Positions 318 through 37,505 of a DNA stretch of 64,000 nucleotides are shown piece by piece. The notes beneath the pieces are model-generated. The model did no database searches and was not told the DNA's origin. It was given only the letters and a program-made list of their open reading frames with translations. The position numbers and the translations under genes are program-made. Positions within the stretch are counted from its first letter, which is position 1, and the number at the start of each line of letters is the position of its first letter. Source of the stretch: Macrostomum lignano. Lineage: Eukaryota. Location: assembly GCA_002269645.1 (NCBI GenBank), contig NIVC01003173.1:1-64000 (forward strand). Direction: 5' to 3'.

Positions 318-821
318 ATGCTTAAATTAAAAGCGATAAAGGAAAGGTTTGGGCAGCTTGGGCACACCCCAGATCATGAGCGCTGCCTTCCGTGCATCTA
401 TAAAATCAACGACGGCTACCGACCGGAGCAATGTAAGCACGAGAACCTCTTTCTGACTTGGTTTCGAAGTAAGTCTGCCATTAAGAGCGACAGATTGTAC
501 CAGAATGGACCTATCGGCCGGCATACTCTCGACTCCATTGTGGCGAATATCACCAAGCCCGTGTCTACGGATGGTAAATTCTCAAACCAGTCTCTAAGGA
601 AGACATGTGCCAGCACGTTGCATCGGGCTGGACTGGCTAGGGACGATATAGCCCGCGTCACTGAACATTCGTCCAACGCAATTGAGAGTTACATACGGCT
701 AGACGTCCAGGACCATTCGCGTATGACCTACGCTCTACACGCCGGAGGAGCCGTGGAGTCCAATGGCGGACCAATGAGCAAGATGTCGTGTCTGAGGGTA
801 CTACCAAGAAGATGCGCATGA
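318..821 (+). pseudogene. Crypton-like tyrosine recombinase (DUF3504-type) C-terminal remnant
   Basis: ERCLPCIYK...PIGRHTLDSIV...FSNQSLRKTCASTLHRAG...VTEHSSNAIESY matches the Crypton/DUF3504 pattern RCPV...PIG.NTL...TNHSLR.T....L...G....TGH.S.....Y. The catalytic His is replaced by Q and the G of TGH by E; the 5' end is truncated. Confidence 0.8.
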
Positions 822-4960: not shown

Positions 4961-6340
4961 ATGCATCTGGTGCGTCTAGTACTTCTGCTGGTCCTACCAT
5001 CGTGTATTTCAGTTTTTCCTAGCGTTGTCGCATCGTCCTCGGGCCAGCTGGGGCCGAAGAACACCATCTACGATGGCCTACTGGCTTATTTATTTGAAAA
5101 CGAGACAACGCCGTACAAGGCGAACGCTATGCCAATCTGCGAGCTGGGAAAGAAGCTGAAGATTCAACAGGATATGCTGCTTATTCAGCTGTTCGATCTT
5201 GACGAACCAACCCAGATGCTCACGGTTGACGTCTGGGTTGAATCGACATGGAAAGACTGTCGGCTGACATGGGATCCGAAGCGCTTTAACAATATTGATA
5301 ACTTTGTCATCAAGGCGGAGGAGATCTGGTACCCCGATCTTATATTCTACGAGTCTCTGCACGGAAACTTCGAAGAGGGCATGTTCATCTACGGCGAGTC
5401 CAAGGCCAGAATCTTTAGCGATGGCTCCATTCAGCTAGGAGCTCAGGCTGTGTTCAAGTCTTTCTGTCGGATCAACATAGCACAGTTTCCGTACGATAGA
5501 CAGCGCTGCAACATCACGTTCAGTTCTTGGACGAAGGATACCAGTAATTTCTTGCTTGTCAAGAAAGAAGAAGCGCCCGGCAAAAAAGAAGATCATGCTT
5601 TTGTCAGTGCCAGCAACGGTGAGTGGATGGTGGAGGGTTTCCCGTCCTTCGATCGCGTAGCGGACAGAAAAGTCGGTCTCGATGAAGCTTCTGGTCGTTC
5701 GAGACAATATAGCGAGGTTGCTTTCCAACTGCGGCTCAAGCGAAAGTACATGTTCCAGCAGGTCTATATGCTGTTCCCGTGCATGCTGCTCACTTGGCTG
5801 ACGCTATTCGTCTTTATCATGCCAACCGAGTGCGGCGAGAAGATAGCTTACGTCACCACTATTCTACTGTCGTTGATGGTTTTCCTATTGATGGTGTCGG
5901 ACAACATTCCCCGATCAGGCGACGCTGTACCGGTGCTAGGAATCTACTTCTGCATAGCCATAGCACTAGTGAGCCTCGCCAACATCAAGACTATAATCAG
6001 CTACAACATATCGCTGAAGGGTAAGGACTTCTGCATGCCAGCCTGCTTCATTAAGATACTGGAAAGCGGCAAGTACGTCGGATTGCCGCTGACGCATCAC
6101 AATGAGGCCGCTGTCAAAGTCATCTCGTTCGCGATGAAGCCACGACAGGCCGGACAGAATCCGGTGACGCGTCACGAGGATTCCGAGGTGCCGCTGTCGA
6201 CGACAAACCCAGAGAGTCATTTCGGACAGGACGAGAATAAATGGCGTTTTCTAGGAATCATTTTGGACAGAGTTTTTCTCATCATTTACTTTGTCTTGAA
6301 TCTGGCTGTGTCAATATGGATTTTGACCAGATGCGACTAG
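4961..6340 (+). CDS. Intronless Cys-loop ligand-gated ion channel, nicotinic acetylcholine receptor-like non-alpha subunit (459 aa)
   Basis: Signal peptide, IWYPD motif, Cys-loop CRINIAQFPYDRQRC, four TM helices, cation-type GEK before M2 (ECGEKIAYVTTILLSL). No vicinal YxCC in loop C. Confidence 0.95.
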   Translation: MHLVRLVLLLVLPSCISVFPSVVASSSGQLGPKNTIYDGLLAYLFENETTPYKANAMPICELGKKLKIQQDMLLIQLFDLDEPTQMLTVDVWVESTWKDCRLTWDPKRFNNIDNFVIKAEEIWYPDLIFYESLHGNFEEGMFIYGESKARIFSDGSIQLGAQAVFKSFCRINIAQFPYDRQRCNITFSSWTKDTSNFLLVKKEEAPGKKEDHAFVSASNGEWMVEGFPSFDRVADRKVGLDEASGRSRQYSEVAFQLRLKRKYMFQQVYMLFPCMLLTWLTLFVFIMPTECGEKIAYVTTILLSLMVFLLMVSDNIPRSGDAVPVLGIYFCIAIALVSLANIKTIISYNISLKGKDFCMPACFIKILESGKYVGLPLTHHNEAAVKVISFAMKPRQAGQNPVTRHEDSEVPLSTTNPESHFGQDENKWRFLGIILDRVFLIIYFVLNLAVSIWILTRCD

Positions 6341-8409: not shown

Positions 8410-9726
8410 CGAGGGGTGATCAAAAAGTTCTGCAACCTTTTGTTATAGCTTTTAGTTATAGAATCGGGAAAAGACAAAAACTTACACATATGCAGCTGTA
8501 TCTGTTTGCTATATTTATATGCATTTTTGGCTTCCAAATGTGCTTTAGTAAAATTTCACAGCCATATATTTTCCATGTGTTTTCAGTAGCTGATGGAAAC
8601 AACAAGACAGTGTTCGCTTCTATATCTTTATGTGCATGCAACTTGGTTGCAAAGTGACTGAGATTCACACCGATCTGGTGAATGTTTTAGCTGACTCTGC
8701 TCCATCATTTGACATGGTTGCCCGCTGGCTGCGCCATTTCTTGGAAGGCTGGGACAGCTTCAACGATGAACCGAGGTCTGGCTGACCCCGGACATCCGTG
8801 ACCGAAGATGTCGTGGCCCATGCCGATGCAATAATTCGTGAGGATTGAAGCATTATGCTAAGATTCATTGCCTATGAGCTTGGTGTCAGCTGCGGAAGTG
8901 CTCATAACATCATGCATGAGCAACTAGGCCGCACAAAGACCTGCGCTCGGTGGGTACCCCATCTTCTCACTCCGGAGCAGCAAGCAGAGAGGGTGCGCAT
9001 CTGTCGCTTGTGGCTGCAAATTTTTGAGCCCCACGGCCCACGACGACTGTCGGATGTCATCACAGGAGACGAATGTTGGATCTCCTTCTTTTACCATGAA
9101 GGATAAGCAGTCCAACATGGTCTGGCTGGCAGAAGATGAGCCAAGGCCTGAGGTGCTGAAGACCGGATTCCGCAGTCGGAAGCGGATGTTCACCATTTTT
9201 TTCAACTCTCAGGGTGTTGTATCGGTGAACATCCTTCCAGCGGGTGCCACAGTGACTGCCAGGTACTACACAGACACTGTTCTGCCAGGCGTGCTGCAGG
9301 AGCGGCAGGAACGTGCGCGAACCAGGCATGGACCTCGACTCCTGCTGCACCATGACAATGCGGCACCGCACAGAGCGGCATCAACCATGGCGTACCTGGA
9401 GCAGCAGGGGGTCCGGCTGCTGCCCCATCCACCCTACTCTCTAGACCTAGCACCTTGCGACTTTTGGCTGTTCCCGAGGATCAAATCCGTCATTTCTGGG
9501 AGGCCGTTTTCACGCATGCAAGACCTTGCCCAAGCGGTACATTCAGCTCTACAGGGCATACCAACTTCGGAGTACCAGGACTGCTTTCAGACATGGTGCA
9601 CACGGATGCGACGGTGCATAGATAGTGGTGGAAAGTACTTTTAGGGAATGTGACACTGATTAGACGCCTCGGCTGCTGTAGCACAGAGTTGTGAGGTCAC
9701 TTGCAGAACTTTTTGATCACCCCTCG
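8410..9726 (+). mobile_element. Mariner (DD34D) transposon, 1317 bp, transposase pseudogenised
   Basis: Perfect 26-bp TIRs cgaggggtgatcaaaaagttctgcaa (8410-8435; 9701-9726) with TA duplication. WVPHLL, TGDE, HDNA and HPPYSLDLAPCDF motifs with a 34-residue D-D spacing. In-frame stops and a frameshift split the ORF (8855-9106, 9024-9644). Confidence 0.95.
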
Positions 9727-11339: not shown

Positions 11340-11610
11340 CCTGCCGAGATCAACTACCGAGACGCTGCCGGGGATCGGCAATCATGCTTACCCGTTGCCA
11401 GCGGTTCCTGCACCTCAGCGGCCTCGTGCCGGACGTTGCCGACGATCTGGTGGCCTGGGTCGTGTTTCGTTCTGTGCGCTCCGTGCTACATTCTGAGACC
11501 CTGGATGACGGGCTCAAGGCTTGGCTGTTTCAGGCAGTCGCTGACACTGTCTTGTACAACGCCGAGACCTTGGAGAAGCAGCTGGACGCTGCGCATGCGC
11601 ATGCATATAT
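11340..11610 (+). mobile_element. Fragment of an RTE-like non-LTR retrotransposon reverse transcriptase C-terminus
   Basis: LTRCQRFLHLSGLVPDVADDL..AWVVFRSVRSVLHSETL...LFQAVADTVLYNAET.LEKQLDAAH resembles the RT thumb motif F.YLG...AW.AF......L......LF.A.V..VLLY.AETW, with internal deletions. Confidence 0.7.
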
Positions 11611-11743
11611 TTCTGTCTATGACAGATGGGTTATGTCATGTACGCCCTGCATGTTCCAGCGTCAACGCTTTGAATTTATTTTTCAGTTATTTGATTTATT
11701 TGCTGAGTTTAGAGCCGGTGTAGTGTAAAAGTATACTTGCTAA

Positions 11744-12613
11744 TGTAGAAGGGCTTATGTTTATTCCTAGAAAATTAGTTTGTTTCCGCGAAATTAAATT
11801 CCCGCCAAAATAATAAGTACCGTATGATTTGTTTTAATTCGTAAATTTGTTTTACTGAATAATATTTTGTTTTAATGATGCGAATAATTTGTTTTAGCTA
11901 TTCATTTGTTTTAATGTTAGATACGTAAGCCAATGAATCAAGACTCTAACTAGTATAAATACAAGGCCAAAATAAAACGAAACCTCAACCTTTCGGGTTC
12001 CTAATCAGTTAACAGGAAATTAAGATTTCTTGGTTCTTCTGAATTAGTCCTTTGAAGCAGTATTGCAAACTAAGTTACCGTGTTGGATAGCAGAAAGCGT
12101 TTTGCCAGTACAGTGACAAGCAGGGATTGCTGATCAAAAAGGGTGGAATACCCAGTAAAGAGGGTGGAATACCCAGTGCAAAGAGGGTGGAATACCCAGT
12201 ACAAAGGGTGGAATACCCAGTGTAGAAAGGTTGGATTACCCAGGAAGGGAGAATTTTCAGGTTGCTCAGATTAGCGTGATGCAGTTCTAAGTCGTGAGAG
12301 ACAGGAAGCCGGAAACCCCTCGGTCTGTGGTAAACGCCGTGTTTGGACTGGATAATTTTAGGAATTTAACAGTAGTCAGCAGTGTCTTGCCGCTCGGGCA
12401 CTGAAGCTACCAAGGGTAACTCGTAGCGACGATAGCCCATAACGTAAAAGTACACATAAGCATAGAAATAGGATTCTTAGAAATAGCAAATTTAGCAGTT
12501 TTAGTACAGTTCAGTGTTTAAACTTTAGAATTAAATAGAGAGAGCCAGAAGGCCTGCTACAACTTGGTGACAAGTCGGTGGGATATTATAAACTAGCGAA
12601 GGGGCCTGCTACA
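11744..12613 (+). repeat. 5' LTR (CCAAT ~11930, TATA gtataaata ~11953-11961, AATAAA 11971-11976)
   Basis: Matches 20412-21281; by eye I found one substitution (catttgttttaatg vs catttgatttaatg). Confidence 0.97.
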
Positions 12614-12616
12614 ACT

Positions 12617-12627
12617 TGGTGGCAGCG
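12617..12627 (+). promoter_or_regulatory. Primer binding site TGGTGGCAGCG, complementary to the tRNA-Leu(AAG/UAG)-type 3' end
   Basis: Lies 3 nt after the LTR end. The eukaryotic tRNA-Leu 3' end ...AUCCCACCGCUGCCA-CCA (recalled) is complementary over 11 nt. Confidence 0.75.
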
Positions 12628-12708
12628 TAAAGGATCGAGGAACCGGCGAGAATCTAGTATAGTGTTTTAAGTAGTTAAAAGTACATTTTAAAAGTACATT
12701 CGGATAGG

Positions 12709-13662
12709 ATGGCTGCAGGAATTAATGATGCAATTGCACTTTTAGCTGAGGAGATTAGGAATAGATTAGAGCTAGGACCATTAAGGCATGTGAAGATACA
12801 GAAGTTTACGCCTAGTCAGGATATTAGGATTTGGCTCACTGCTTTCGACCAGAGGTGCGAAGCAGAAGGAATAGAAGTAGAGCATAGGAAGACTGAGCTA
12901 CTAGCTAACTTAGATCTAGCGACAGCATTTGCTGCAGTGCAAAGGTTAAATTTGCCTGATGAACTAACTTACGAGGAGTTTAAGGAGCGCTTAGTAGAGA
13001 GGTTTGGTAGGATAGGTAGTGCATCAGAATTTCGGGAGGAATTCCGTGGAAGAATGCAGGGTAGGAACGAGACTGCGGAAGCTTATGCCGACGCATTGAT
13101 TGAGTTGTCCACAAGGGCTTTTCCGAATATGAACGCTGAACAGCGCGAGGAGGAAGTAGTTGAACAGTTTATTAAGGGGGTAAGAATCCCAACAGACACT
13201 AGGGAGAAGCTAATTTTTGCGCAGCCAGCTAATCTGCAGGAGGCTAGGAGAATGTTGCGTAGGATTGAAGCAGCCTGGCATATGTCACACAAAGGAGGTG
13301 TGAGAACTGTGAGGGAAGGAGAGGATGAGCAGCAGAAGTTGCAGGAGCTGGTGAGACAGCAGAAGGATGAGCTGGAACAGCAGCGGAAGAGAATTGAAGA
13401 GCTCATGGCGTATAAGCCGCTGTACAAACCAGGGCCTCAGCCATGCCCAGCTCAGATGCCGCGTCAAGCATCTCAGCAGCAGTCGGCGTTTCAGCCACGA
13501 ATTTCGAATATGTATCGGCCCAGGCCAAGGAGTGAGTTTGTAGGCAAATCATTCGTGCCGCAGCCAGGAAAGTGTGCAGTCTGCCAGAATCCGGGACCGA
13601 TAAGGCCTGGTTTGGATCACCAGTGCCGCTTGTTCCGCAATCGAGGTAATCAGGGAAACTAA
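12709..13662 (+). CDS. gag: Gypsy Gag (317 aa)
   Basis: Retrotransposon capsid-like motifs (WLTAFDQRC, FRGRMQGRNETAEAYADALIEL, QFIKG), a coiled coil, and a C-terminal atypical Cys/His knuckle. Confidence 0.9.
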   Translation: MAAGINDAIALLAEEIRNRLELGPLRHVKIQKFTPSQDIRIWLTAFDQRCEAEGIEVEHRKTELLANLDLATAFAAVQRLNLPDELTYEEFKERLVERFGRIGSASEFREEFRGRMQGRNETAEAYADALIELSTRAFPNMNAEQREEEVVEQFIKGVRIPTDTREKLIFAQPANLQEARRMLRRIEAAWHMSHKGGVRTVREGEDEQQKLQELVRQQKDELEQQRKRIEELMAYKPLYKPGPQPCPAQMPRQASQQQSAFQPRISNMYRPRPRSEFVGKSFVPQPGKCAVCQNPGPIRPGLDHQCRLFRNRGNQGN

Positions 13663-13698
13663 AGTTCGAGGGTCGAGAGACGAGGCCACGTCCCTCCA
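13653..13698 (+). promoter_or_regulatory. -1 ribosomal frameshift signal: slippery G GGA AAC plus downstream stem-loop
   Basis: The heptamer 13653-13659 is in the gag frame just before the TAA. The pol frame is -1 and open from 13653. gaggg(13668-72)/ccctc(13694-98) encloses a gacg-aggcca-cgtc hairpin. Confidence 0.85.
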
Positions 13699-16600
13699 GA
13701 AAATTTAATTGCAAAGTGAAGGCCTCTAAGTGCGATTCTGAAGGTTGGCAAACTGTCCCCATTCGAAAGAGACATATGCGTGATGCAACTGTATATAATG
13801 CGTTTAATGCACCTGCGTCTGCACCATCTGTATTTTCTGCGTCTGCACCATCTGCGTCTGCACCATCTGCGTCTGCACCATCTGCATCCGCCGCATCGCG
13901 ATATGTCGTCCCTGCATCTGCTGTTGACGAGTCAGCATCAGCCGATGAGCCCCGAGAAGAAGAAGAATCTGCACCCGAAGCAAGCCAACCAAAGCCGAAA
14001 AAGGTAAGCAAGCGCAAAGTTTTTGTCAAATCTAAGGTAGAACTAGTGAATCATAAAAGTTATGAGGCAATAGTAGTAGGCGATATAGAAAAGCAGGAGG
14101 TAGACTTTTTACTAGACACGGGTGCTAGAAACAATTTCTTAGGCCGATCAGTGTGGTCAAAATTATTCGAACAAGATCAAATTAGGGAGACGAATAAGAG
14201 AGTTTCCACATTCGATGGAACGAGAGTTCAGTTAGATGGCGAAGTGCGTGCTGCAGTGAAATTCGGAGACTTTGAGATCGAAATTGATTTCCTACTATGC
14301 AGCCATGAGTGTGATAACATACTCGGAATGGAGTTTTTCCTAGAGCAGTGTGAGAGCATTCATCTAACAAAAGGCATGCTCATCTTGAAAGAAGGAACGT
14401 GTATTCCTATGCAATACACCCACCTTCCGGTAAAGGTTTGCCGAGTATATACGCAGGAGAAGGCAGTCATTCCGCCGAATAGTGCACTGCGAATTCCTGT
14501 GCGCCTAGCGAAAAATTCTGAAGCTAATTATGGAGCTCCGATGACAATTGAGACAATTGGAAATGGCGTGAGAGCAAGAGAAGAGACTCTGGAGATGAAT
14601 CCAACTCTAGTGACTATGCGTGAAGGAGTAGCTATAGTGGAAGTCGTGAACTCGAGTCCAGTTGAAGTTAAATTGCCAAAATCATCGCTAGTAGGTTTAG
14701 CCAAGCCAATGAGAGCTAGAGAACTTACCTATCTGACTAGTGAAAAAAATCAATCAGAGCCAGTTACTGGACGAGTTAATCAGGCGCAATCTAATGACGA
14801 GTCTTGGATTAGCGAAATTAATATTAGCGAAAACTTAACTAAAGAGCAAAAGGAGAAAGTGATTCAGCTCGTGAGAGAGCACGGTGAAGCGTTTTCGCAG
14901 AATGAATTGGATATGGGGCTAACTCAGCTAGTGACGCATGAAATTTCATTAAAAGATGAGACACCTGTGAGGATCCCGACTAGAAGGATTCCCCCTCATC
15001 TTCAGAAGCAGGTAGATGCTCAGTTAGATGACATGCTAGCTAAGAACTTAATTAGACCATGTTACTCTACGTACTCAACACCCTTAGTGATTGTACCCAA
15101 GAAGGATGGTACTATTCGCATTGTGAGTGATTTCAGAGTACTAAATTCGAGAGTAAATTATTTCCCATATCCGTTGCCTAATATTCAGGAAACTTTCTCG
15201 CATTTGACGGGCAGTCAGTACTTTAGTAGCCTTGACCTAAATTCTGGTTATTGGCAGGTTCCAATTAAGGAAGAGCATAAACACATGACTGCGTTTTCAA
15301 CTTTAACTAGAGGGCAATTTGAGTATCAGGTGATGGCGCAAGGTCTATCTAATGCGCCAGGCACTTTTCAAAGGCTCATGAATCTTGTATTGGCGGGCAT
15401 TCAGCATAAATATGCCATGTCGTACATAGATGACATCGTGACCTATTCGAAGCAATTTGAGGAGCATTTAGAGCATTTGAAGGAAGTTTTTCAAAGACTT
15501 ATTAATGCAGGACTAAAGTTGAGAGCTAAGAAATGTAATTTATTCCATAGTGAGCTAAAATATTTAGGCCATGTGATCGGGAGGGAAGGAATTAGGACCG
15601 ACGAGACAAAAATAGAAGCTATTAAGAGTTGGCCGAAGCCAAAGGAGGTGAAGGAATTACGAAGCTTTCTAGGATTATGTAACTACTATAGTCGCTTTGT
15701 CAAAAATTATGCCGAAGCCGCGCATCCCCTGTTTCAACTGACTCGGAATGGAGTGCAAAATTTTCAAGCAAAATGGACTAAGGCTCATGATCAGGCATTT
15801 GAGGAATTAAAAAATAGAATGATGTCAACAGAAGTTCTAGCCTATCCAGAATTCGTAGACGATGAAAATGTTAAAATGGTTTTGGACACTGATGCTAGTG
15901 ATGGACGCATAGGAGCCTGTTTAGGTCAAATCCAGTCAGATGGCATCGAGAGGCCTATAGCATATTTCAGTCGTGCTATGAAGGAATCGGAGAAACGGTA
16001 TCCTATTACTAGAAAAGAGCTATTAGCTTTAGTAGATGCGATGAAGCATTTTAGGTTTTATTTAATAGGGAAGCGATTTCTAGCGCGCACCGATCATAAA
16101 GCAATTCTGTGGTTATTAAGGCAGACAGAAGCTCAAGGAATTTTAGGAAGATGGATAGAACGGTTGAACGAATTCCAGTTTGATATAGAGCATAGGAGTG
16201 GGGCAAAACATTCTAACGCAGATAGTTTGTCCAGGAGGCCGGCAGAAACAGCCGGAGCAGTCAGTGAATCTGTGAACGAAGAAGGCGTGAGTGCCAGTAG
16301 AGAAGGCGTGAAAGCCAGTGAATCTGTGAACGAAGAAGGCGTGAGTGCCAGTAGAGAAGGCGTGAAAGCCAGTGAACCTGTGAACGAAGAAGGCGTGAGT
16401 GCCAGTAGAGAAGGCGTGAAAGCCAGTGAATCTGTGAATGGCGTGAGTGCCATGAAAGAAGGCGTGAGAGCTGTGGAAAACCTTATTGATGGAGAGATGC
16501 AGACTCCGCATCCCACTGATTCAGAATCTAGGATCGAGTCATTAATCTCAGGAGAGAAAGGTGTGAAAGGAACTGATGTGTCAGCACGGAGTTCTAGCGA

Positions 16601-18572
16601 TATGCAACTGAACCGAGACACTGATCCTGCACACATGAAGAATGATACGCCTAAAGTTGAAAAATTATTGACTGATTATTTGCCAGTACCTTTGAAGAGG
16701 GAACAGATTATAAAAGCTCAGAGAGAGGACGCAGCGATTTGCACTTTGGCCAAATGGAAGCAAGATAAGCTGTCAGTTCCCCCATCTCAAGAGAGCAACT
16801 CAGCTGAGTTAAAGCAGTTAAGCAAGCATTATGAGAATATGAAGCTAGAAAAAGAAATGCTCATTATTGAAGAAGATGAGAAATGGAAAGTCGTCTTGCC
16901 TAGATCCTTGGACAAGCTAGTTCTTAGCGATCTACATGATAGCCCACTAGCCGGACACTTAGGCAGAGATAAGACAATCCAGCGAGTCAAGGAGAGATTT
17001 TGGAGACCAGGTTTAGTGACTGAGGTAGAGAAATATGTGGCGGAGTGTATTCCGTGCCTAGAAAGCAAGAGAGGTCACAAGATTCAGGCGCCAGTACAGT
17101 CATTTCCAATTAGTGAACCGTTTCATAGATTGCATATAGACGTGATCGGGCCGATCTCAAAAGTAAGCAAGAGAGGGCACCAGTACGTTTTAACTATAGT
17201 GGACAGTAACACGCGATACCCGTTTGCTTTCCCAATGCGTAATCAGAAGGCAGACACGATTATCAAGTTATTACAAGAGAGAGTGTTCAGTGAGTATGGC
17301 CAGTGCCATTGGATCCACACGGACAATGGTAAAGCGTTTACTAGCAGGCAGTTTAATTCGTTTTGCGATTTGTATAATGTTAAGCACACATGTACGACTC
17401 CATACCATGCCCAAAGTAATGGCTTGGTAGAGCGATTCAATAAACAAATTAAATCGATTATTACTTGCTTAATAGAGAAAGACCATAGCGATTGGGATCT
17501 GTTAATCCCAGCAGCGTTAGTAGCAGTCAGAACCAGTGTGAATCAGACCACCGGATATTCACCTCATTTTCTATTATTCGGAAGAGAAGCAGTTTTACCT
17601 ATGGATAGTGAGCTTAGAGAGTCGAGTAATTACGCTAATTATCCAACGTATGTTGCCGAACATGCTAAGAGGCTGGAGAGTGCAAGGAAGCTCGTGAGAG
17701 AGAAGTACGAGAAGGTGCATAGCCATAGACAAGAAAGTTCAGAAAATCAGAAAAAGCCCAAAAATATCGCACTAGGAAGTTTAGTATTAATCAATAATCC
17801 ACAATTAGAGAACGAGGAGTCAAATAAATTTCATAGGAAGAAGAGAGCAGCTTACAGAGTGCTGAAGCAGATTTCGGAAGTTGTCTTTAAAATTCAGAAG
17901 GAAGAAAATGGAGAATTAACAGGCAATAAACTAATAGTGCATAGAGAAAACATGACATTAGTACCGAACTCAGTCAGAGAGCCAATAGACAAGGGAGGCC
18001 AACCCAGTATGCCAACTGCAGAGCTTCAAGATAAGGGAAGCCAGGCGGCAGAGGCGAAACGCAAGGGAAGCCAGCCCAAGAAGAAGACCAGAACTATACC
18101 AACTAAGAAGTTATGTGAACAAGAAGAAGAGTCATCATCATCAGATGAAGAAGACCAAATCAATTGGCAGTGCAAATTCCGTGATGGAAATGAATCTGTA
18201 AGAGGAAGCAATTTAGAGATAGGAGCAGAAGTAGAAGTTAGGGAAGAAGGAAGCGAAGGTGAGAATCCACAGCGTGAGAGCTCAGAAGAGGAGATTGAGG
18301 AAGAAATCGAAGCAGAGAGTGAGGAAAGTGAGAAGGGTGAGGAATCAGAGCTTGAGCACGAGGGAGAGAGAGAAAGTGAGGAGGAGGTTGCACGCGAGCA
18401 CAGTGCGTCAAAGGAGGAGATATCGCATACCGAGCAGAGTGAGAGACAGGATGACGCAATACCAGCTAAAAGGTATAACACGCGCAGTCAGACCAAGCCT
18501 CCAAACAGATGTCAGTGCTATCTGAAAAGGCTAATCTCTGTGTGGAGCCTATTAGAGAGACTAAAATTCTGA
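13653..18572 (+). CDS. pol: Gypsy Pol (protease, RT, RNase H, integrase, long acidic tail), translated as Gag-Pol
   Basis: FLLDTGA (PR), SYIDD (RT), LDTDASD (RH), HDSPLAGHLG...CIPC zinc finger and IDVIGP/HTDNG/NGLVERFN D,D35E (IN); uninterrupted frame. Confidence 0.97.
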   Translation, partial: GKLKFEGRETRPRPSRKFNCKVKASKCDSEGWQTVPIRKRHMRDATVYNAFNAPASAPSVFSASAPSASAPSASAPSASAASRYVVPASAVDESASADEPREEEESAPEASQPKPKKVSKRKVFVKSKVELVNHKSYEAIVVGDIEKQEVDFLLDTGARNNFLGRSVWSKLFEQDQIRETNKRVSTFDGTRVQLDGEVRAAVKFGDFEIEIDFLLCSHECDNILGMEFFLEQCESIHLTKGMLILKEGTCIPMQYTHLPVKVCRVYTQEKAVIPPNSALRIPVRLAKNSEANYGAPMTIETIGNGVRAREETLEMNPTLVTMREGVAIVEVVNSSPVEVKLPKSSLVGLAKPMRARELTYLTSEKNQSEPVTGRVNQAQSNDESWISEINISENLTKEQKEKVIQLVREHGEAFSQNELDMGLTQLVTHEISLKDETPVRIPTRRIPPHLQKQVDAQLDDMLAKNLIRPCYSTYSTPLVIVPKKDGTIRIVSDFRVLNSRVNYFPYPLPNIQETFSHLTGSQYFSSLDLNSGYWQVPIKEEHKHMTAFSTLTRGQFEYQVMAQGLSNAPGTFQRLMNLVLAGIQHKYAMSYIDDIVTYSKQFEEHLEHLKEVFQRLINAGLKLRAKKCNLFHSELKYLGHVIGREGIRTDETKIEAIKSWPKPKEVKELRSFLGLCNYYSRFVKNYAEAAHPLFQLTRNGVQNFQAKWTKAHDQAFEELKNRMMSTEVLAYPEFVDDENVKMVLDTDASDGRIGACLGQIQSDGIERPIAYFSRAMKESEKRYPITRKELLALVDAMKHFRFYLIGKRFLARTDHKAILWLLRQTEAQGILGRWIERLNEFQFDIEHRSGAKHSNADSLSRRPAETAGAVSESVNEEGVSASREGVKASESVNEEGVSASREGVKASEPVNEEGVSASREGVKASESVNGVSAMKEGVRAVENLIDGEMQTPHPTDSESRIESLISGEKGVKGTDVSARSSSDMQLNRDTDPAHMKNDTPKVEKLLTDYLPVPLKREQIIKAQREDAAICTLAKWKQDKLSVPPSQESNSAELKQLSKHYENMKLEKEMLIIEEDEKWKVVLPRSLDKLVLSDLHDSPLAGHLGRDKTIQRVKERFWRPGLVTEVEKYVAECIPCLESKRGHKIQAPVQSFPISEPFHRLHIDVIGPISKVSKRGHQYVLTIVDSNTRYPFAFPMRNQKADTIIKLLQERVFSEYGQCHWIHTDNGKAFTSRQFNSFCDLYNVKHTCTTPYHAQSNGLVERFNKQIKSIITCLIEKDHSDWDLLIPAALVAVRTSVNQTTGYSPHFLLFGREAVLPMDSELRESSNYANYPTYVAEHAKRLESARKLVREKYEKVHSHRQESSENQKKPKNIALGSLVLINNPQLENEESNKFHRKKRAAYRVLKQISEVVFKIQKEENGELTGNKLIVHRENMTLVPNSVREPIDKGGQPSMPTAELQDKGSQAAEAKRKGSQPKKKTRTIPTKKLCEQEEESSSSDEEDQINWQCKFRDGNESVRGSNLEIGAEVEVREEGSEGENPQRESSEEEIEEEIEAESEESEKGEESELEHEGERESEEEVAREHSASKEEISHTEQSERQDDAIPAKRYNTRSQTKPPNRCQCYLKRLISVWSLLERLKF

Positions 18573-18630
18573 GTCAGGGAAGAATTGGTAGCAAGGGTAA
18601 GGCACAGAGCAAGCAAACAAGTGGGAGTTC

Positions 18631-18807
18631 ATTGGGTAAGGGAAGGAAATCAGAGCAGCCAATTAGAAGCCAGCTATTGGGAAGGCCAGGAGTGGTCAAC
18701 TGGGAAATCAGGGCGGTCAGCCAATGAAAATTCAGCTTTTGATTAAATGAATTGATGGGAAAATTAAAACAAACAACGCCTGGGGTGGGGTGCCACGCCT
18801 ATATAAA
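18631..18807 (+). promoter_or_regulatory. Internal Pol II promoter for ORF3
   Basis: Four CCAAT/ATTGG boxes (18631, 18659, 18676, 18721), GGGCGG (18711), GGGGTGGGGT (18782) and TATATAAA (18800-18807), about 100 nt upstream of an ATG in strong context (gtaATGG). Confidence 0.7.
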
Positions 18808-18905
18808 CAAACACCCAGAGGCGAGAGGAAGTCAATTATAGTCGTGTTGACAGCTAGTAACCGTTTTGGTATCGATTAACCGTGTTGGATTGAGATAACT
18901 CCGTA

Positions 18906-20012
18906 ATGGAAGATACGATTGACATAATGGCTGAAGACGATATCTTAGACAAGATTTTAGCGGACATTGAGGTAGGAAGTGTTGAGGAAATTGAAGGAAG
19001 TGCGAGTGCGAAGTCACCAGGAGACAACGCCGTGATAGCAGCGGGACCGGCAAAAACGTCAGGTGACAACGCCGTGATGGCAGCAACGATGAAGTCGCCA
19101 GGAGATGACACCGTGATGGCAGCAGCAGCGACGGTGAGGTCCGACAGCAGTGCCGTGATGATAGAAGATGAAGAGGACCGTCCGAACAAGCGGCTGAAGT
19201 CGGTAGTCATTAAGAGGACATCAACTGAGGCAGAAGGTGCGCAGTCGGCGAAGCGGCCTGCTCTAGGGAACCAGTCATTAGTTCCACATGATCCAAAGGC
19301 CCGAGCGCGGCTGTTAAGCGACCAAGCTAACAGGCCAGTGCCTGTCATTCCGGCCATTATGAAGCGGCAACCACAGGGCGCCAAGAGCGCTATATGTCTC
19401 GCCAGTCAGTACCGGCCGATACAGCCGAAGCCACCGACAGTAGCCGGCGGGCGAGGACGGGCGACAGCAGCAGCATCGGCGACAGCCGGCCGTCGAGGGC
19501 CAGCAGCAGCCTCAGCAGCAGCAGCAGCAATCGGCGGGCAGCCTGCGCCAAGGTTGACGACAGCGCCAGCGCCAGCGCCGACCACGATCCCGAAGCGGTC
19601 ACAGGATGCGGCAGCTTGCGGTTCAGCCAGTGCCGCAGACCTCAGTCTAGGATCTGACTTCCCGGCCGTGCTCGACCGAATCCCGAGAACTCAACATGAT
19701 CAGTTGAAACGCTTTATTAAAATGCTTAAGGGACATTTGATGCGCATGGCGTATCTACGCACCGATCGGCCAACTCCATGTCGGTGCACACAGGCCAAAC
19801 CAGTGTTGCGCCTGCTGGTGCAGCAGTTCGATCTGGAATCAAGAATCGCAGCCTGGCGCCGAGCCGTGCAATACACGCTGCACGATCTGACGCAAGCTGG
19901 GCAAACATTTCATCGACTATTGCTGCAAATCGAGATCCGCTGGATGGCGGACCAGCTCGGCTGGCTGTACCACGACCAACTGCCTGAGGAGTTCGAACTG
20001 GAACGCAATTAA
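18906..20012 (+). CDS. Gypsy accessory ORF3, 368 aa, unknown function (not env-like)
   Basis: Intact ORF inside the element between the pol stop and the 3' LTR. Acidic N-terminus, three short tandem repeats, basic NLS-like RPNKRLK, Ala/Pro-rich linker, helical C-terminal domain; no signal peptide or TM segment. Confidence 0.8.
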   Translation: MEDTIDIMAEDDILDKILADIEVGSVEEIEGSASAKSPGDNAVIAAGPAKTSGDNAVMAATMKSPGDDTVMAAAATVRSDSSAVMIEDEEDRPNKRLKSVVIKRTSTEAEGAQSAKRPALGNQSLVPHDPKARARLLSDQANRPVPVIPAIMKRQPQGAKSAICLASQYRPIQPKPPTVAGGRGRATAAASATAGRRGPAAASAAAAAIGGQPAPRLTTAPAPAPTTIPKRSQDAAACGSASAADLSLGSDFPAVLDRIPRTQHDQLKRFIKMLKGHLMRMAYLRTDRPTPCRCTQAKPVLRLLVQQFDLESRIAAWRRAVQYTLHDLTQAGQTFHRLLLQIEIRWMADQLGWLYHDQLPEEFELERN

Positions 20013-20411
20013 GTACATCTTGAACTAACTTTTGCATTTGAATTACTTTTATTACTAGGACAATACTTTTTCTCTTTTAAAACCTTGCTTATTCTGTGTG
20101 AATTCCATGCCATCGCTACTTTGAATTTGCTTATTCTGTGTATAACAATGCTATTTTTCTTTGTGAACTTGCGTGAATTTTCTGTACTCATTCTTTGTGA
20201 AGTAGCTTTTATCTTCTGCATGCACAATTTTTATTTCTGGTGAACAGTTGTTTGATGATTTAGTGCTCTTCAAATGTATATATATATCTTTTTGCGCAAT
20301 TACATTTATCAGTTCGTGCCTTTACTACATTGCTCAGTTTTTGATGAATATGTATTGTTGTATTATTTTGTTCACTTAAAAATTCGCAAAATAATATTCA
20401 GGGAAGCCAAC

Positions 20412-21281
20412 TGTAGAAGGGCTTATGTTTATTCCTAGAAAATTAGTTTGTTTCCGCGAAATTAAATTCCCGCCAAAATAATAAGTACCGTATGATTTGT
20501 TTTAATTCGTAAATTTGTTTTACTGAATAATATTTTGTTTTAATGATGCGAATAATTTGTTTTAGCTATTCATTTGATTTAATGTTAGATACGTAAGCCA
20601 ATGAATCAAGACTCTAACTAGTATAAATACAAGGCCAAAATAAAACGAAACCTCAACCTTTCGGGTTCCTAATCAGTTAACAGGAAATTAAGATTTCTTG
20701 GTTCTTCTGAATTAGTCCTTTGAAGCAGTATTGCAAACTAAGTTACCGTGTTGGATAGCAGAAAGCGTTTTGCCAGTACAGTGACAAGCAGGGATTGCTG
20801 ATCAAAAAGGGTGGAATACCCAGTAAAGAGGGTGGAATACCCAGTGCAAAGAGGGTGGAATACCCAGTACAAAGGGTGGAATACCCAGTGTAGAAAGGTT
20901 GGATTACCCAGGAAGGGAGAATTTTCAGGTTGCTCAGATTAGCGTGATGCAGTTCTAAGTCGTGAGAGACAGGAAGCCGGAAACCCCTCGGTCTGTGGTA
21001 AACGCCGTGTTTGGACTGGATAATTTTAGGAATTTAACAGTAGTCAGCAGTGTCTTGCCGCTCGGGCACTGAAGCTACCAAGGGTAACTCGTAGCGACGA
21101 TAGCCCATAACGTAAAAGTACACATAAGCATAGAAATAGGATTCTTAGAAATAGCAAATTTAGCAGTTTTAGTACAGTTCAGTGTTTAAACTTTAGAATT
21201 AAATAGAGAGAGCCAGAAGGCCTGCTACAACTTGGTGACAAGTCGGTGGGATATTATAAACTAGCGAAGGGGCCTGCTACA
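20412..21281 (+). repeat. 3' LTR
   Basis: Near-identical to the 5' LTR; followed by TSD ctaa (21282-21285). Confidence 0.97.
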
Positions 21282-22960
21282 CTAATAAATCCTTATTTAC
21301 TTGCACGCATTTAATATGTTGCCAATTTTAAATATGTAGTAAACAGTCATAACTAATACAAGGTTTTTGAGCATATCCAAAATAGTTTAAGCGGAATTAT
21401 TAAACGGAGTTAAAAATTAGTGAGAAGCGCACTGTTAGTCAGCGATATCTACGTGTTAGCAACTTTTAAGCACGAAGCATGAAGCATGGATGTCACTATT
21501 CCGCCTAACGGCTCTTAACGTATTCTAAGAAATCTGATGATTGTAATTTAACTTTGTTCTGCGTGATTACGACCACCGATGATTCAGGGAATCATCAATG
21601 CAATGCTTTTTTGGATCTAGCATGTTTAAACTTTAAATTATCACTTTTCTGACTTTCTAAAGTTACAGAAATGATTCCTTCTAACTCTGCCTGTAGTCTT
21701 TACTAGTGGATTAGCCTACTTGCTAAATGTAATATTTTTGTAGGCCTAGGTAGGCACTAGCAATTATAAAATTGTATCAACTGCCAAAGTGATCTACAAA
21801 ATGTGTTTAACTTTAATTAATTAAACATGTACAATTAAATTTAATGAATGGAACATGGTGTCAATACAACGAAAATATAACTTAGGCCTAATTACTTAGG
21901 CCCATAAATCATAATATATAATTAATATAGAACTTTATATTTATTAATAATAATCAGCAAATCAGACATGTCTCATTAGTAATTTATACAGGCTCTATAT
22001 AACTTAGTTTTATTAATTTTAGCTTGGATACAGTAGGGCCTAGCTTGAATTGCATCTTTTTTCATCTATTTGTCTAGTTTAAACTTCCTTTTTTTCTAGG
22101 CCTACTTTTTTGGTTGTCTCTTTATTTTTAATTGTATCTTCTTTATAGGCCAAAGTTTCTTATCCTACCTTAGGCCTAAGGTTCTTTTGCTATCTCTTTT
22201 GCATTTTTATTTAAAGTTGGCATAAGGCCTATTAAAATAAATTTTAAAATTTGCCTTGGTTTGGTGATAGGATATATTATATAACCTTGGGATTGAAGTA
22301 CTTCTCCTTCTCGGGTTCTTAAAGATGTTCCTAGAAATAGAACCTGCTGCTCCTGAAGAAGCTAGATAGCACCATTGTACTACCTATCAAGTTGCCTAAA
22401 AATGAACCTAAAATGTTAGCCGTGACTTGGTAGGGTTGCTGCCAGTGCCACCTTGGTGTGTGGACTCGACGCATTGGCAGAGTTGTCTATCCGTCACCTG
22501 AAAGAAAATAACAAAGTCGCTCGGAGCAAAGGCAAATCTGAAAAATGTCTCAACAGTTGATTGTCTTAGTAGAATGCTGCTCAAACGTGAAAACCTGTAA
22601 AACCTGAAATGAGAGAGGAGAGCTCAGGGGAGGCTTCACGAGTCAGCCACGATGCTCCACGAGACGATGCAGTTTGGCTCCGTGTTACTCCATGAGACGT
22701 TGCAGTCTGGAGAAAAATGGCTCGCAGGTGCTCCATATTTATAGCCAAGCAGAACCCCAAAAGTCACGTGAGTTTCATGCAGTGAGCGCATGAAACAGGA
22801 TCTAGGATACAGGATCTAAATACAGGATCCAGTCACTACAGGATCTAGATCCTAGGATCTTATAATCCCAAGATTAGACCCAAATCCTAGGATTCTGAAT
22901 CCTAAGATTTCAATTAACCCAGTTTGCTATAATTTAATCATTCATTCTCAAGTAATAGTA

Positions 22961-36332: not shown

Positions 36333-37505
36333 CTATGGCAGCATTGCTGTACCATCCGACGCCAGGCAGCTGTTCGCCGCTCGCTTCCTTCTCCGCTGTT
36401 GACTCCTGTGCTGTCGGATCCCGTCGTAGTCGTCTGCGCTGCCGCAGTGCAGGAAGCGCGGCAGGCTTTGACCCAGTTGGCGCCTGAAGCCTTGGCCTGT
36501 TGCCAGGTAGATGACAAACTTCATAGCGTAATGACTGACAGCCAGACAGTCGACTATTCGGCTCACTGTCAGGTAGGTCAGGTAGGACCTGGCCACCGGC
36601 CACTGGCCATCGGTAATTTGATGCAGCGCGTCCGAGTCTGAAATGCCGCACGGAAGCTGCGGCGCCTCGGTGAGAATTGCCAGCCCGACAAACAATAGAA
36701 TCGTGACGGGTAGCACCGCGCCAATCTGATAGAAACTGACGGTTAGCAGAGTGGCCGTGGTAGCGGCGGATTTTCTCTGACCAGTACCGGCTGGTCGTTT
36801 CCGGATGACACGTCGAGCCTCGACTAGCACGAGAATGTTGAAGACTAGAATGGCTACTGGAGCCAGGGCGAAGAACAGCACCTCGGTGAGCTTGGACCAG
36901 CCGCTGTAGAACCGATGCTCGAACGTGCTCGGATCGAATATTCGCAAATCCTCCGAGCAAGTGGCTTCGACTGGATTGTACCGGTAAAAGTGCAGCTGCA
37001 CTAGGCCCAGTACTAGACAGGCAACGGTCATGCATGAGACAACGATAATAGCGCGTCGAACTGTGCAGAATTCTTTCCGGCTGAATGGATGACAGATGCC
37101 GATGTAGCGTTCGACAGTGAAACCGAGGGTTAGCAGGGGCGACAGGTACTGCAGCCACATGTTGTACACTGGGAATGCTCTGCACATGAGTGGATTGTAC
37201 ATTACCTTGATGTCGTAGTATAAATACAGGTGAAACGGCAGCTGCTGGCAGAGCAGGAACATCAGGTCTAGAATAGCCAGTGCGCAGAGGTAGACGCTTG
37301 AGGACGAGCGCATCGGCTTGCTGCTCCACACCAGCAAGCTCAGGAGCGAACCTGGCACGCCTAGGGCTATCCACATCGGAATGATGATTCGGGCAAAGGT
37401 GACAACACCCGGTAGAAATGCGCTGCACACTCCCAGGGTGCTGTTGTAGCGATCTTCGAGACTCTGCATACAGTCCGTGGCGTTTTCGCCGCTGTAAGTG
37501 TCCAT
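36333..37505 (-). CDS. Intronless class A peptide-type GPCR (FMRFamide/sex-peptide receptor-like), 390 aa
   Basis: 7 TM segments, TM1 GVPGSLLS, TM2 YLCALAILD, TM3 FTVERYIGICHP, ECL cysteines, TM7 HYAMKFVIY. First ATG at 37505, behind an acceptor-like cctgtcag. Confidence 0.9.
   Translation of the reverse strand: MDTYSGENATDCMQSLEDRYNSTLGVCSAFLPGVVTFARIIIPMWIALGVPGSLLSLLVWSSKPMRSSSSVYLCALAILDLMFLLCQQLPFHLYLYYDIKVMYNPLMCRAFPVYNMWLQYLSPLLTLGFTVERYIGICHPFSRKEFCTVRRAIIVVSCMTVACLVLGLVQLHFYRYNPVEATCSEDLRIFDPSTFEHRFYSGWSKLTEVLFFALAPVAILVFNILVLVEARRVIRKRPAGTGQRKSAATTATLLTVSFYQIGAVLPVTILLFVGLAILTEAPQLPCGISDSDALHQITDGQWPVARSYLTYLTVSRIVDCLAVSHYAMKFVIYLATGQGFRRQLGQSLPRFLHCGSADDYDGIRQHRSQQRRRKRAANSCLASDGTAMLP

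What the first reader, a model, noticed from the sequence alone, without database searches (positions are those of the whole stretch)
18575..20012. Young Gypsy element carries a non-env accessory gene behind its own internal promoter
Seen: between the pol stop (18572) and ORF3 (18906) is a dense promoter (4 CCAAT boxes, GC box, GT box, TATATAAA) and a strong-context ATG. ORF3 is intact (368 aa) in an element whose LTRs differ at about one position. It has no signal peptide, furin site or TM helix, so it is not env. Its layout is an acidic-hydrophobic N-terminus (EDDILDKILADIE, activation-domain-like), short repeats, NLS-like RPNKRLK and SAKRPAL, a disordered Ala/Pro linker, and a ~110-aa helical C-terminal domain with CRC. 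Established: foamy viruses use an internal promoter to drive the Tas transactivator, and simple Gypsy elements have only gag/pol(/env). Inference: this may be a complex retrotransposon with a nuclear regulatory protein (transactivator or silencing antagonist), possibly an undescribed accessory-gene system.
Basis: partly seen in the sequence, partly recalled or inferred. Interest (0 to 1): 0.82.

Follow-up and report, generated by a model that had tools for sequence, protein, structure and literature searches.

The report
Retrotransposon with unknown third gene
A recently inserted, intact jumping gene (Ty3/Gypsy type) carries an extra gene that is not a viral envelope gene, sits behind what looks like its own promoter, and encodes a protein of a small undescribed family that probably helps the element control its own expression.

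Summary
The element (11744-21281) is intact and young: 870-bp LTRs with 1 mismatch, a 4-bp target duplication, gag, frameshifted pol and an intact 368-aa ORF3.

ORF3 is not env: it has no hydrophobic segment and no furin site. Its helical C-terminal domain is conserved in two distant proteins (27% and 39-40% identity). One of them lies in a gene model next to a gag 48% identical to this one. So ORF3 is most likely a real, selected accessory gene with no named family.

The gap before ORF3 copies the LTR promoter design (strict CCAAT box, TATA, TCA 32-33 nt on) and shares three 10-12-nt motifs with the LTR. An internal promoter is likely but not shown.

The transactivator reading is weakly supported. 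The acidic N-terminus and CRC are not kept in the relatives, and the NLS pattern is common by chance.

The premise is too strong. Internal promoters (Tor, Grande) and nuclear accessory proteins (Cer1 CERV, MDG1 sORF1, Grande GENE23) are already known in LTR retrotransposons. Verdict: a new variant of a known kind, with a new protein family of untested function.

The parts
11740..11743 (+). target-site duplication, 4 bp (CTAA), left copy
   Evidence: right copy 21282-21285
11744..12613 (+). 5' LTR, 870 bp, TG...CA, 1 mismatch to the 3' LTR (11909)
11828..11915 (+). U3 array of TTTGTTTTA (5 copies, 3 extended to TTTGTTTTAAT); the LTR mismatch falls in the last copy
11928..11990 (+). LTR core promoter: AGCCAATGAA, TATAAA at 11954, TCA with A at 11987 (predicted start region)
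   Evidence: start site inferred
12617..12628 (+). primer binding site, tRNA-Leu type
   Evidence: its reverse complement matches at 11 of 12 bases a 12-mer listed as Leu-type in the supplement of PMC13524379
12709..13662 (+). gag, 317 aa
   Evidence: Retrotrans_gag E=0.0012, below the curated cut-off; 48% identity over 174 aa to the gag part of P0003
13653..13659 (+). -1 frameshift heptamer G GGA AAC, followed by a predicted hairpin
   Evidence: frameshifting inferred from established knowledge
13650..18572 (+). pol in the order PR-RT-RH-IN, intact
18573..18905 (+). predicted internal promoter and 5' leader of ORF3: 5 CCAAT pentamers, GC box 18711, strict NF-Y box 18719, GT box 18782, TATATAAA 18800, TCA with A at 18834
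   Evidence: activity not shown
18762..18773 (-). inverted copy of the U3 repeat motif (12 of 12 identical to 11828-11839)
18879..18890 (+). 12-mer ACCGTGTTGGAT shared with LTR 12077-12088, downstream of the TATA box in both places
18906..20012 (+). ORF3, 368 aa: acidic residues 1-32, four ~14-aa repeats 36-86, basic stretch 92-135, Ala/Pro/Gly linker 136-243, conserved helical domain
19635..20009 (+). conserved all-alpha domain (residues 244-368), five predicted helices
20013..20411 (+). T-rich 3' untranslated region ending in a short purine tract before the 3' LTR
20412..21281 (+). 3' LTR; AATAAA at 20639 is the only AATAAA in 20013-20760 and the likely poly(A) signal for both RNAs

Best explanation
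This is an intact, recently transposed, env-less Ty3/Gypsy retrotransposon with a functional third, accessory gene. SHOWN: the gene is intact, soluble-type, and has a ~110-aa helical domain conserved in distant relatives, one of them beside a related gag. INFERRED: an internal RNA polymerase II promoter built like the LTR promoter starts a ~1.8-kb unspliced RNA near 18834 that ends at the 3' LTR poly(A) signal, so ORF3 can be made apart from the genomic RNA. INFERRED, weaker: the protein enters the nucleus, the helical domain binds nucleic acid or a chromatin factor through its conserved basic helix, and the disordered part recruits host machinery, raising the element's own expression. Within this, I favour action at the DNA or chromatin level on motifs shared by the two promoters (a Tas-like or anti-silencing loop, about 0.25) slightly over action on the RNA (see rivals). 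My separate odds: selected accessory gene 0.85; internal promoter real 0.7; nuclear self-regulator 0.5.
For: Conservation: phmmer against 1.84 billion proteins found 3 hits at E<=0.001. P0002 is a 235-aa stand-alone protein, 27% identical over domain residues 20-118, with the same disordered-N/helical-C layout and no hydrophobic segment. P0003 is a chimeric model with a 39-40% match directly followed by a gag 48% and a protease region 33% identical to this element's. P0002 and the P0003 piece match each other without ORF3 (3 of 2000 shuffles reach the score). All three rows share L..[HY]L.R.A.LR.D, and ORF3 and P0002 also share a W...Q.GW.Y end. The 3-row alignment raised the AlphaFold2 model from pLDDT 47.1/pTM 0.32 to 72.6/0.62. 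Promoter: of 147 TATAWA sites on both strands of the window, 6 have a strict NF-Y box 15-150 nt upstream, and 4 of these are the two LTRs and this gap (two overlapping sites). TATAAA-to-TCA spacing is 33 nt in the LTR and 32 nt here. Two separate 12-mers are shared with the LTR; 0 of 3000 shuffles and 0 of 184 other windows had two. Other routes look poor: 7 further stops in the pol frame exclude readthrough, and no AG in the gap has more than 8 of 15 upstream pyrimidines. ORF3 four-fold GC is 0.55 against 0.37 in gag+pol (p=1e-5) and like four host ORFs (p=0.32), yet with the element's A>T skew (71:22).
Against: There are no RNA data. The shared motifs read like ordinary host-factor sites (NF-Y; AT-rich forkhead/Sox-like, label recalled), which needs no element-encoded activator; at k=10 the sharing is modest (6 of 184 windows have as many segments). 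The acidic N-terminus has no aromatic residue and is not matched in P0002, whose N-terminal part does not align above chance (176 of 2000 shuffles). The NLS-like match occurs in 23% of shuffles, and CRC is not conserved. Only two distant relatives were found, both near the E-value limit (6e-4, 8e-4). P0002 has no known context, and in P0003 the ORF3-like piece lies before gag, not after pol, in a chimeric model. The models are uneven: the other four AlphaFold2 models had pLDDT 66.9, 52.9, 52.7 and 46.6.
Confidence: 0.45

Rival explanations
1. ORF3 is an RNA-level helper, like Cer1 CERV or Rev: made from a short intronless RNA, it protects or exports the unspliced genomic RNA or shields it from small-RNA silencing. 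This shares the gene and promoter with the best explanation and differs in the target.
For: A nuclear export factor of this kind is proven in an LTR retrotransposon (PMC10309623, abstract and section 9). The genomic RNA holds 6 internal GTAAG donor-like sites, two of them just after the pol stop. The helical domain is basic (net +8 in residues 244-320) and has leucine-rich NES-like patterns at 300 and 335. The shared 12-mer lies in the transcribed leader of both RNAs.
Against: No likeness to CERV was tested or found. CERV comes from a spliced RNA and shares exons with gag. The NES-like patterns fall inside predicted core helices and are common. No Rfam family lies in the element.
Confidence: 0.2
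2. ORF3 is a selected accessory protein with a non-regulatory job: a cytoplasmic or particle-bound adaptor that binds a host restriction factor, or helps the integration complex reach the nucleus or germ line (Vpr/Vif-like).
For: Only the helical domain is conserved, and a long disordered region fits a protein-binding adaptor. TE accessory proteins are reported to evolve fast and to have many predicted host contacts (PMC13547354, passages).
Against: Nothing points to a partner. The promoter motifs shared with the LTR are not needed for this role.
Confidence: 0.2
3. The gene is real but is expressed by cis-splicing from the 5' LTR or by spliced-leader trans-splicing; the promoter motifs are remnants or enhancers.
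For: Splicing is the usual route for third ORFs (PMC5408684 part 2; Tor3a in PMC4402516). A donor-like site lies at 12416 in the 5' LTR. AGs at 18841, 18853 and 18857 precede the ATG.
Against: Those AGs have 4-8 pyrimidines in 15. A full TATA/CCAAT/TCA set lies at the right distance.
Confidence: 0.2
4. ORF3 is a recently captured host gene fragment, or neutral cargo that is intact only because this copy is young.
For: Host-like four-fold GC. Another copy (in P0001) looks decayed, with 6 of 14 changed residues of CpG-transition type in 85 compared. The host genome could not be searched for a cellular source.
Against: No Pfam, NCBIfam or PHROGs family. No hit in two single-sequence searches of the 5.8-billion set. 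A 39-40% relative sits beside a related gag. Conserved columns are hydrophobic core and W/G/Y residues. The A>T skew is the element's, not the host's (p=8e-5).
Confidence: 0.1

Closest known systems
Oikopleura Tor3b/Tor4b elements (PMC4402516; passages and section 18 read)
   Same: Ty3/gypsy-like elements whose third gene is transcribed from an internal promoter; in Tor4b it starts in the gap after pol, as predicted here.
   Different: The Tor third gene is a membrane glycoprotein (Env); ORF3 here is soluble and unrelated by Pfam.
Maize Grande gene23 and other plant 3' additional ORFs (review PMC7264820, parts 1-2 of 3 read; the primary paper seen as a title only)
   Same: Accessory gene between pol and the 3' LTR, with its own promoter and a nuclear protein of unknown function.
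   Different: Antisense to gag-pol, and in plants; ORF3 here is sense and shares the 3' LTR poly(A) signal. Homology not tested directly.
C. elegans Cer1 CERV (PMC10309623; abstract and section 9 read)
   Same: Nuclear, lineage-restricted accessory protein of an animal LTR retrotransposon, with folded domains joined by flexible linkers.
   Different: Made by splicing and shares exons with gag; 517 aa with a GTPase-like domain; proven RNA-export role.
Drosophila MDG1-group sORF1/sORF2 (10.1101/2025.03.14.642691; passages read)
   Same: Non-env accessory ORFs of Ty3/Gypsy elements; sORF1 is about 110 aa, helical and nuclear, with a separate short transcript.
   Different: Upstream of gag and made by early polyadenylation from the LTR; sORF2 is a small membrane fusogen, which ORF3 is not.
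Foamy virus Tas/internal promoter (PMC13220597; passages read)
   Same: Two promoters, with a regulator gene behind the internal one; here the two promoters share short motifs.
   Different: A retrovirus with env; the promoter is in the env 3' end; Tas has a C-terminal acidic activation domain and proven DNA binding. No homology or activity is shown for ORF3, and its acidic part is N-terminal and not conserved.
Bdelloid rotifer ORF3s (PMC5408684; parts 1-2 of 5 read)
   Same: Non-env third ORFs after pol in young invertebrate LTR elements.
   Different: They are GDSL esterases, DEDDy exonucleases or TM proteins, described as made from spliced messages; ORF3 here is all-helical with no enzyme match.

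Membership tests
Ty3/Gypsy LTR retrotransposon | LTRs with TG...CA ends, target duplication, PBS | tested here: met
Ty3/Gypsy LTR retrotransposon | pol order PR-RT-RH-IN; RT closest to Ty3 among solved structures | tested here: met
   Pfam order; best PDB hits are Ty3 RT, E=1e-81
Ty3/Gypsy clade (Mag, CsRN1, Gmr1/Osvaldo, errantivirus) | placement on an RT tree with reference elements | not testable with these tools
   no GyDB/Repbase/Dfam reference set on hand
env-bearing errantivirus / Env protein | signal peptide and transmembrane anchor | tested here: not met
   maximum 19-residue Kyte-Doolittle mean 0.82; acidic N-terminus; no dedicated signal-peptide predictor was run
env-bearing errantivirus / Env protein | furin site and Cys-rich glycosylated ectodomain | tested here: not met
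   no RX[KR]R; 4 Cys, 1 sequon
env-bearing errantivirus / Env protein | fold likeness to F- or gB-type fusogens | tested here: inconclusive
   only residues 244-368 were modelled; no match at E<=0.001
sORF2/FAST-like fusogen | 60-210 aa, single TM helix, N-terminal MGxxxS/T (criteria) | tested here: not met
   368 aa, no TM helix, starts MED
GDSL esterase or DEDDy exonuclease ORF3 | alpha/beta hydrolase or nuclease domain with catalytic motifs | tested here: not met
   no Pfam hit; the only ordered domain is predicted all-alpha
Foamy virus Tas system | functional internal promoter driving the regulator | tested here: inconclusive
   promoter design present; activity not measurable here
Foamy virus Tas system | C-terminal acidic activation domain | tested here: not met
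   the strongly acidic stretch is N-terminal and not matched in P0002; the C-terminus is the conserved helical domain
Foamy virus Tas system | sequence or fold homology to Tas | tested here: inconclusive
   no Pfam hit of any family; no viral fold match; no direct comparison with Tas was run
Foamy virus Tas system | protein binds response elements in both promoters and activates them | not testable with these tools
   shared motifs exist; binding needs an experiment
Cer1 CERV / Rev-like export factor | required for export of unspliced genomic RNA | not testable with these tools
   needs knock-down and RNA FISH
Cer1 CERV / Rev-like export factor | homology to CERV | not tested
   CERV was not fetched; it did not appear among the hits

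The most novel reading that the evidence does not exclude
A lineage of env-less animal Ty3/Gypsy elements has independently evolved a foamy-virus-like two-promoter switch: an internal promoter makes ORF3 first, and ORF3, through a helical nucleic-acid-binding domain of a new family, binds motifs shared by the internal promoter and the LTR and turns on or de-silences the element. The cassette would be portable within the lineage, lying after pol here and possibly before gag in a sister family.
Probability: 0.2. Interest if true: 0.8.

Novelty: new variant of a known kind. Interest (0 to 1): 0.52.

Why it matters
Accessory genes decide how retrotransposons escape host silencing, but only a handful have known roles in animals. 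This element offers an intact, young example with a protein family that has no name in Pfam, NCBIfam or PHROGs and no clear fold match, plus a sharply defined candidate promoter. Its start site, protein location and reporter activity are each easy to test. If ORF3 proves to be a sequence-specific activator or anti-silencing protein, it would be a convergent counterpart of foamy virus Tas in a plain retrotransposon. If it is only another uncharacterised ORF3, it adds one family to a known list.

Tried and rejected
Env, sORF2/FAST, GDSL and DEDDy identities were rejected. Readthrough from pol was rejected: ORF3 is in the pol frame but 7 further stops intervene. CRC as a metal-binding motif was rejected because neither distant relative has it. 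The antisense ORF 18854-19357 (167 aa) has no significant Pfam match (best E=0.22) and is treated as a shadow. No canonical heat-shock element lies in the element.

Searches that found nothing new: the 5.8-billion set with the whole protein (0 of 7999 candidates), with residues 244-368 (0 of 78) and with the 3-row profile against longer proteins (1 of 3688, P0002 itself); proteins shorter than 202 aa were never searched there. Pfam, PHROGs and NCBIfam gave no family. The PDB sequence search gave best E=0.81 (She2p). The ESM Atlas gave only unnamed clusters at 0.91-0.92 with 114-130 shared features, below the useful level, and nothing for P0002. Foldseek gave no match at E<=0.001 in PDB or BFVD. 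VIA-align best was Z 6.2, rmsd 2.6, 60 residues, within the range expected for helical bundles; this neither shows nor excludes a known fold. Rfam had no hit. The homodimer prediction gave no answer (score 0.00, alignment not used).

Not obtained: cluster membership and source names of P0001-P0003; a scan of prokaryotic genomes (alignment too divergent); viral and metagenome contig collections; the host genome. Copy number, dN/dS and the genomic context of the relatives therefore stay unchecked.

Full report
1. The element. The finding lies in a 9538-bp LTR retrotransposon at 11744-21281. The LTRs are 870 bp, begin TG, end CA and differ at one base, 11909. A 4-bp target duplication flanks them. 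[quoted passage not shown] The clade could not be tested. The host is an invertebrate animal; from composition and neighbouring genes I suspect a Macrostomum-like flatworm, but this is inference and no call tested it. There is no second copy of the element or of ORF3 in the window.

2. ORF3 is there and is not env. It runs 18906-20012 (368 aa); 0 of 500 dinucleotide shuffles gave a stop-free frame of 300 aa or more. Its best 19-residue hydropathy is 0.82, and it has no RX[KR]R, 4 Cys and 1 sequon. Residues 1-32 are acidic (net -11, no aromatic residue), 36-86 hold four ~14-aa repeats, 92-135 are basic, 136-243 are 49% Ala/Pro/Gly, and 244-368 look folded. It has no Pfam, NCBIfam or PHROGs family.

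3. ORF3 has relatives. Two word-indexed searches found none. An unindexed phmmer search of 1.84 billion proteins with residues 244-368 found 3 at E<=0.001. P0001 is a chimeric gene model holding a close copy (56-76% identity in two blocks, about 145 residues missing between them) joined to a Brix-domain gene. Of 85 residues compared, 14 differ and 6 of these are CpG-transition type, against 24 of 529 possible changes, so it looks like a decaying older copy and is not evidence of selection. P0002 is a 235-aa stand-alone protein, 27% identical over about 100 residues (E=6e-4), also disordered in front and helical behind; its context is unknown. P0003 is a chimeric model in which a 39-40% match (E=8e-4) is followed at once by a gag 48% identical over 174 aa and a protease region 33% identical over 260 aa to this element's. 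This ties the domain to a related Gypsy family. There it lies before gag, which may mean another position, a place inside the LTR, or two neighbouring copies joined by the gene predictor; I cannot tell which. P0002 and the P0003 piece match each other without ORF3 (3 of 2000 shuffles reach the score). The three rows share L..[HY]L.R.A.LR.D, and ORF3 and P0002 share a W...Q.GW.Y end. A profile search of longer proteins returned only P0002 (1 of 3688 candidates).

4. Structure. Alone, the domain modelled poorly (pLDDT 47.1). With three rows the best of five models reached pLDDT 72.6 and pTM 0.62, with five helices; the other four scored 66.9 to 46.6. Fold searches gave no assignment (see Tried and rejected).

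5. The promoter. The 333-nt gap has 5 CCAAT pentamers (0.2% of 5000 shuffles reach 5), a GC box, a GT box and TATATAAA; one CCAAT fits the strict NF-Y pattern. The stronger argument is the likeness to the element's own LTR promoter. Of 147 TATAWA sites on both strands of the window, 6 have a strict NF-Y box 15-150 nt upstream: the two LTRs, two overlapping sites in this gap, and two others. TCA follows TATAAA at 33 nt in the LTR and 32 nt here, which puts the predicted start at about 18834; 17 of 147 TATAWA sites have such a TCA. The gap and the LTR share AGCCAATGAA, an inverted 12-mer that is repeated in U3, and ACCGTGTTGGAT downstream of both TATA boxes. Two separate shared 12-mers were seen in 0 of 3000 shuffles and 0 of 184 other windows; at 10 nt the excess is smaller (1.7% of shuffles, 6 of 184 windows). 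These motifs were noticed before being tested. The first ATG after the TATA box is ORF3's. Readthrough is excluded by 7 stops, and nearby splice acceptors are weak, though weak acceptors do not exclude cis- or trans-splicing. The only AATAAA in 20013-20760 is at 20639 in the 3' LTR, which predicts an RNA of about 1.8 kb.

6. Codon use. Four-fold GC is 0.55 in ORF3, 0.37 in gag+pol (p=1e-5) and 0.59 in four host ORFs of the window (p=0.32 against ORF3). The A:T ratio at these sites is 71:22, unlike the host's 249:207 (p=8e-5) and beyond gag+pol's 272:189. This fits a separately expressed gene that has long been copied by the element's RT; it does not exclude an old capture from the host.

7. 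Mechanism. Shown: an intact soluble gene with a conserved helical domain in a young element. Inferred with fair confidence (0.7): its own promoter. Inferred with moderate confidence (0.5): a nuclear protein that raises the element's expression. A separate promoter with LTR-shared motifs is what a feed-forward activator or anti-silencing protein would use, so I rank that first (about 0.25), an RNA-export or RNA-protecting role next (0.2), and a host-factor adaptor alike (0.2). The shared motifs may simply be host-factor sites.

8. What is known. Internal promoters for a third gene are proven in Oikopleura Tor3b/4b, in Tor4b in the gap after pol (PMC4402516; passages and section 18). Grande gene23 is a nuclear accessory protein from its own promoter (review PMC7264820, parts 1-2 of 3; primary paper seen as a title only). 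Cer1 CERV is a nuclear export factor (PMC10309623; abstract and section 9). MDG1-group sORF1 is nuclear (10.1101/2025.03.14.642691; passages; its supplements were not seen). Bdelloid ORF3s include enzymes (PMC5408684; parts 1-2 of 5). Tas features are from PMC13220597 (passages). A survey of Macrostomum lignano LTR elements (PMC12801592; parts 1-2 of 6, passages, supplement 1 and part 1 of 8 of supplement 5) has no word starting with 'orf' or 'accessory' in its main text; the one LTR alignment I saw there was not this element's. The one Macrostomum row in the main table of PMC13524379 is an env-bearing element with another PBS (passages and supplement searches). PMC13547354 and PMC8220671 were seen as passages. 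Seven literature searches listed no paper describing this protein family. Subscription journals, Repbase, Dfam and GyDB were not searched and may hold an annotation.

9. Verdict. The feature is real. It is a new variant of a known kind: a Ty3/Gypsy accessory gene with a probable internal promoter, encoding a protein family without a name in the libraries searched. The Tas-like reading remains open (0.2) but has no direct support. Interest 0.52.

Noticed in passing
window 12546-12635 (and 21214-21281): The LTR end holds a 52-bp-spaced duplication: an older-looking terminus followed by a PBS-like sequence lies inside the LTR, ahead of the present terminus and PBS. The LTR seems to have grown by taking in its former end.
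   Followed up: partly
window 12135-12243 and 20803-20911: Five tandem copies of a 21-23-nt unit in U5 of each LTR.
   Followed up: no
window 11909 / 20577: The single LTR mismatch falls inside one copy of the repeated U3 motif that is also found, inverted, in the internal promoter.
   Followed up: partly
window 18597 and 18636: Two GTAAG splice-donor-like sites just after the pol stop; with acceptor-like sites at 20058 and 20337 they could remove ORF3 from a genomic RNA. Speculative.
   Followed up: no
window 16262-16438, 13836-13885, about 18000-18500: pol carries low-complexity inserts in frame: a 54-nt repeat (3.3 copies) between RNase H and integrase, a 15-nt repeat before the protease, and a long acidic tail after integrase.
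   Followed up: no
window 11366-11740: A decayed LINE reverse-transcriptase fragment just left of the element matches the LINE part of P0003 (58% over 31 aa), hinting that P0003 comes from a related host. It does not visibly continue to the right of the element.
   Followed up: partly
window 18854-19357, minus strand: A 167-aa antisense ORF overlaps the ORF3 5' half and leader; no significant Pfam match.
   Followed up: partly
window 318-821 and 9054-9644: Fragments that look like a tyrosine-recombinase element and a mariner-type transposase (labels recalled from the translations, not searched).
   Followed up: no
window 4961-6340, 36333-37505, 45366-47213, 59959-62541: Long single-exon host ORFs that look like a nicotinic receptor subunit, a peptide GPCR, a DEG/ENaC channel and an LDLa/LRR GPCR (labels recalled, not searched); used only as codon-usage controls.
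   Followed up: no
protein P0003, residues 506-634: The ORF3-like piece lies between an interrupted tyrosine recombinase and gag, so a sister family may carry this gene upstream of gag or inside its LTR.
   Followed up: partly
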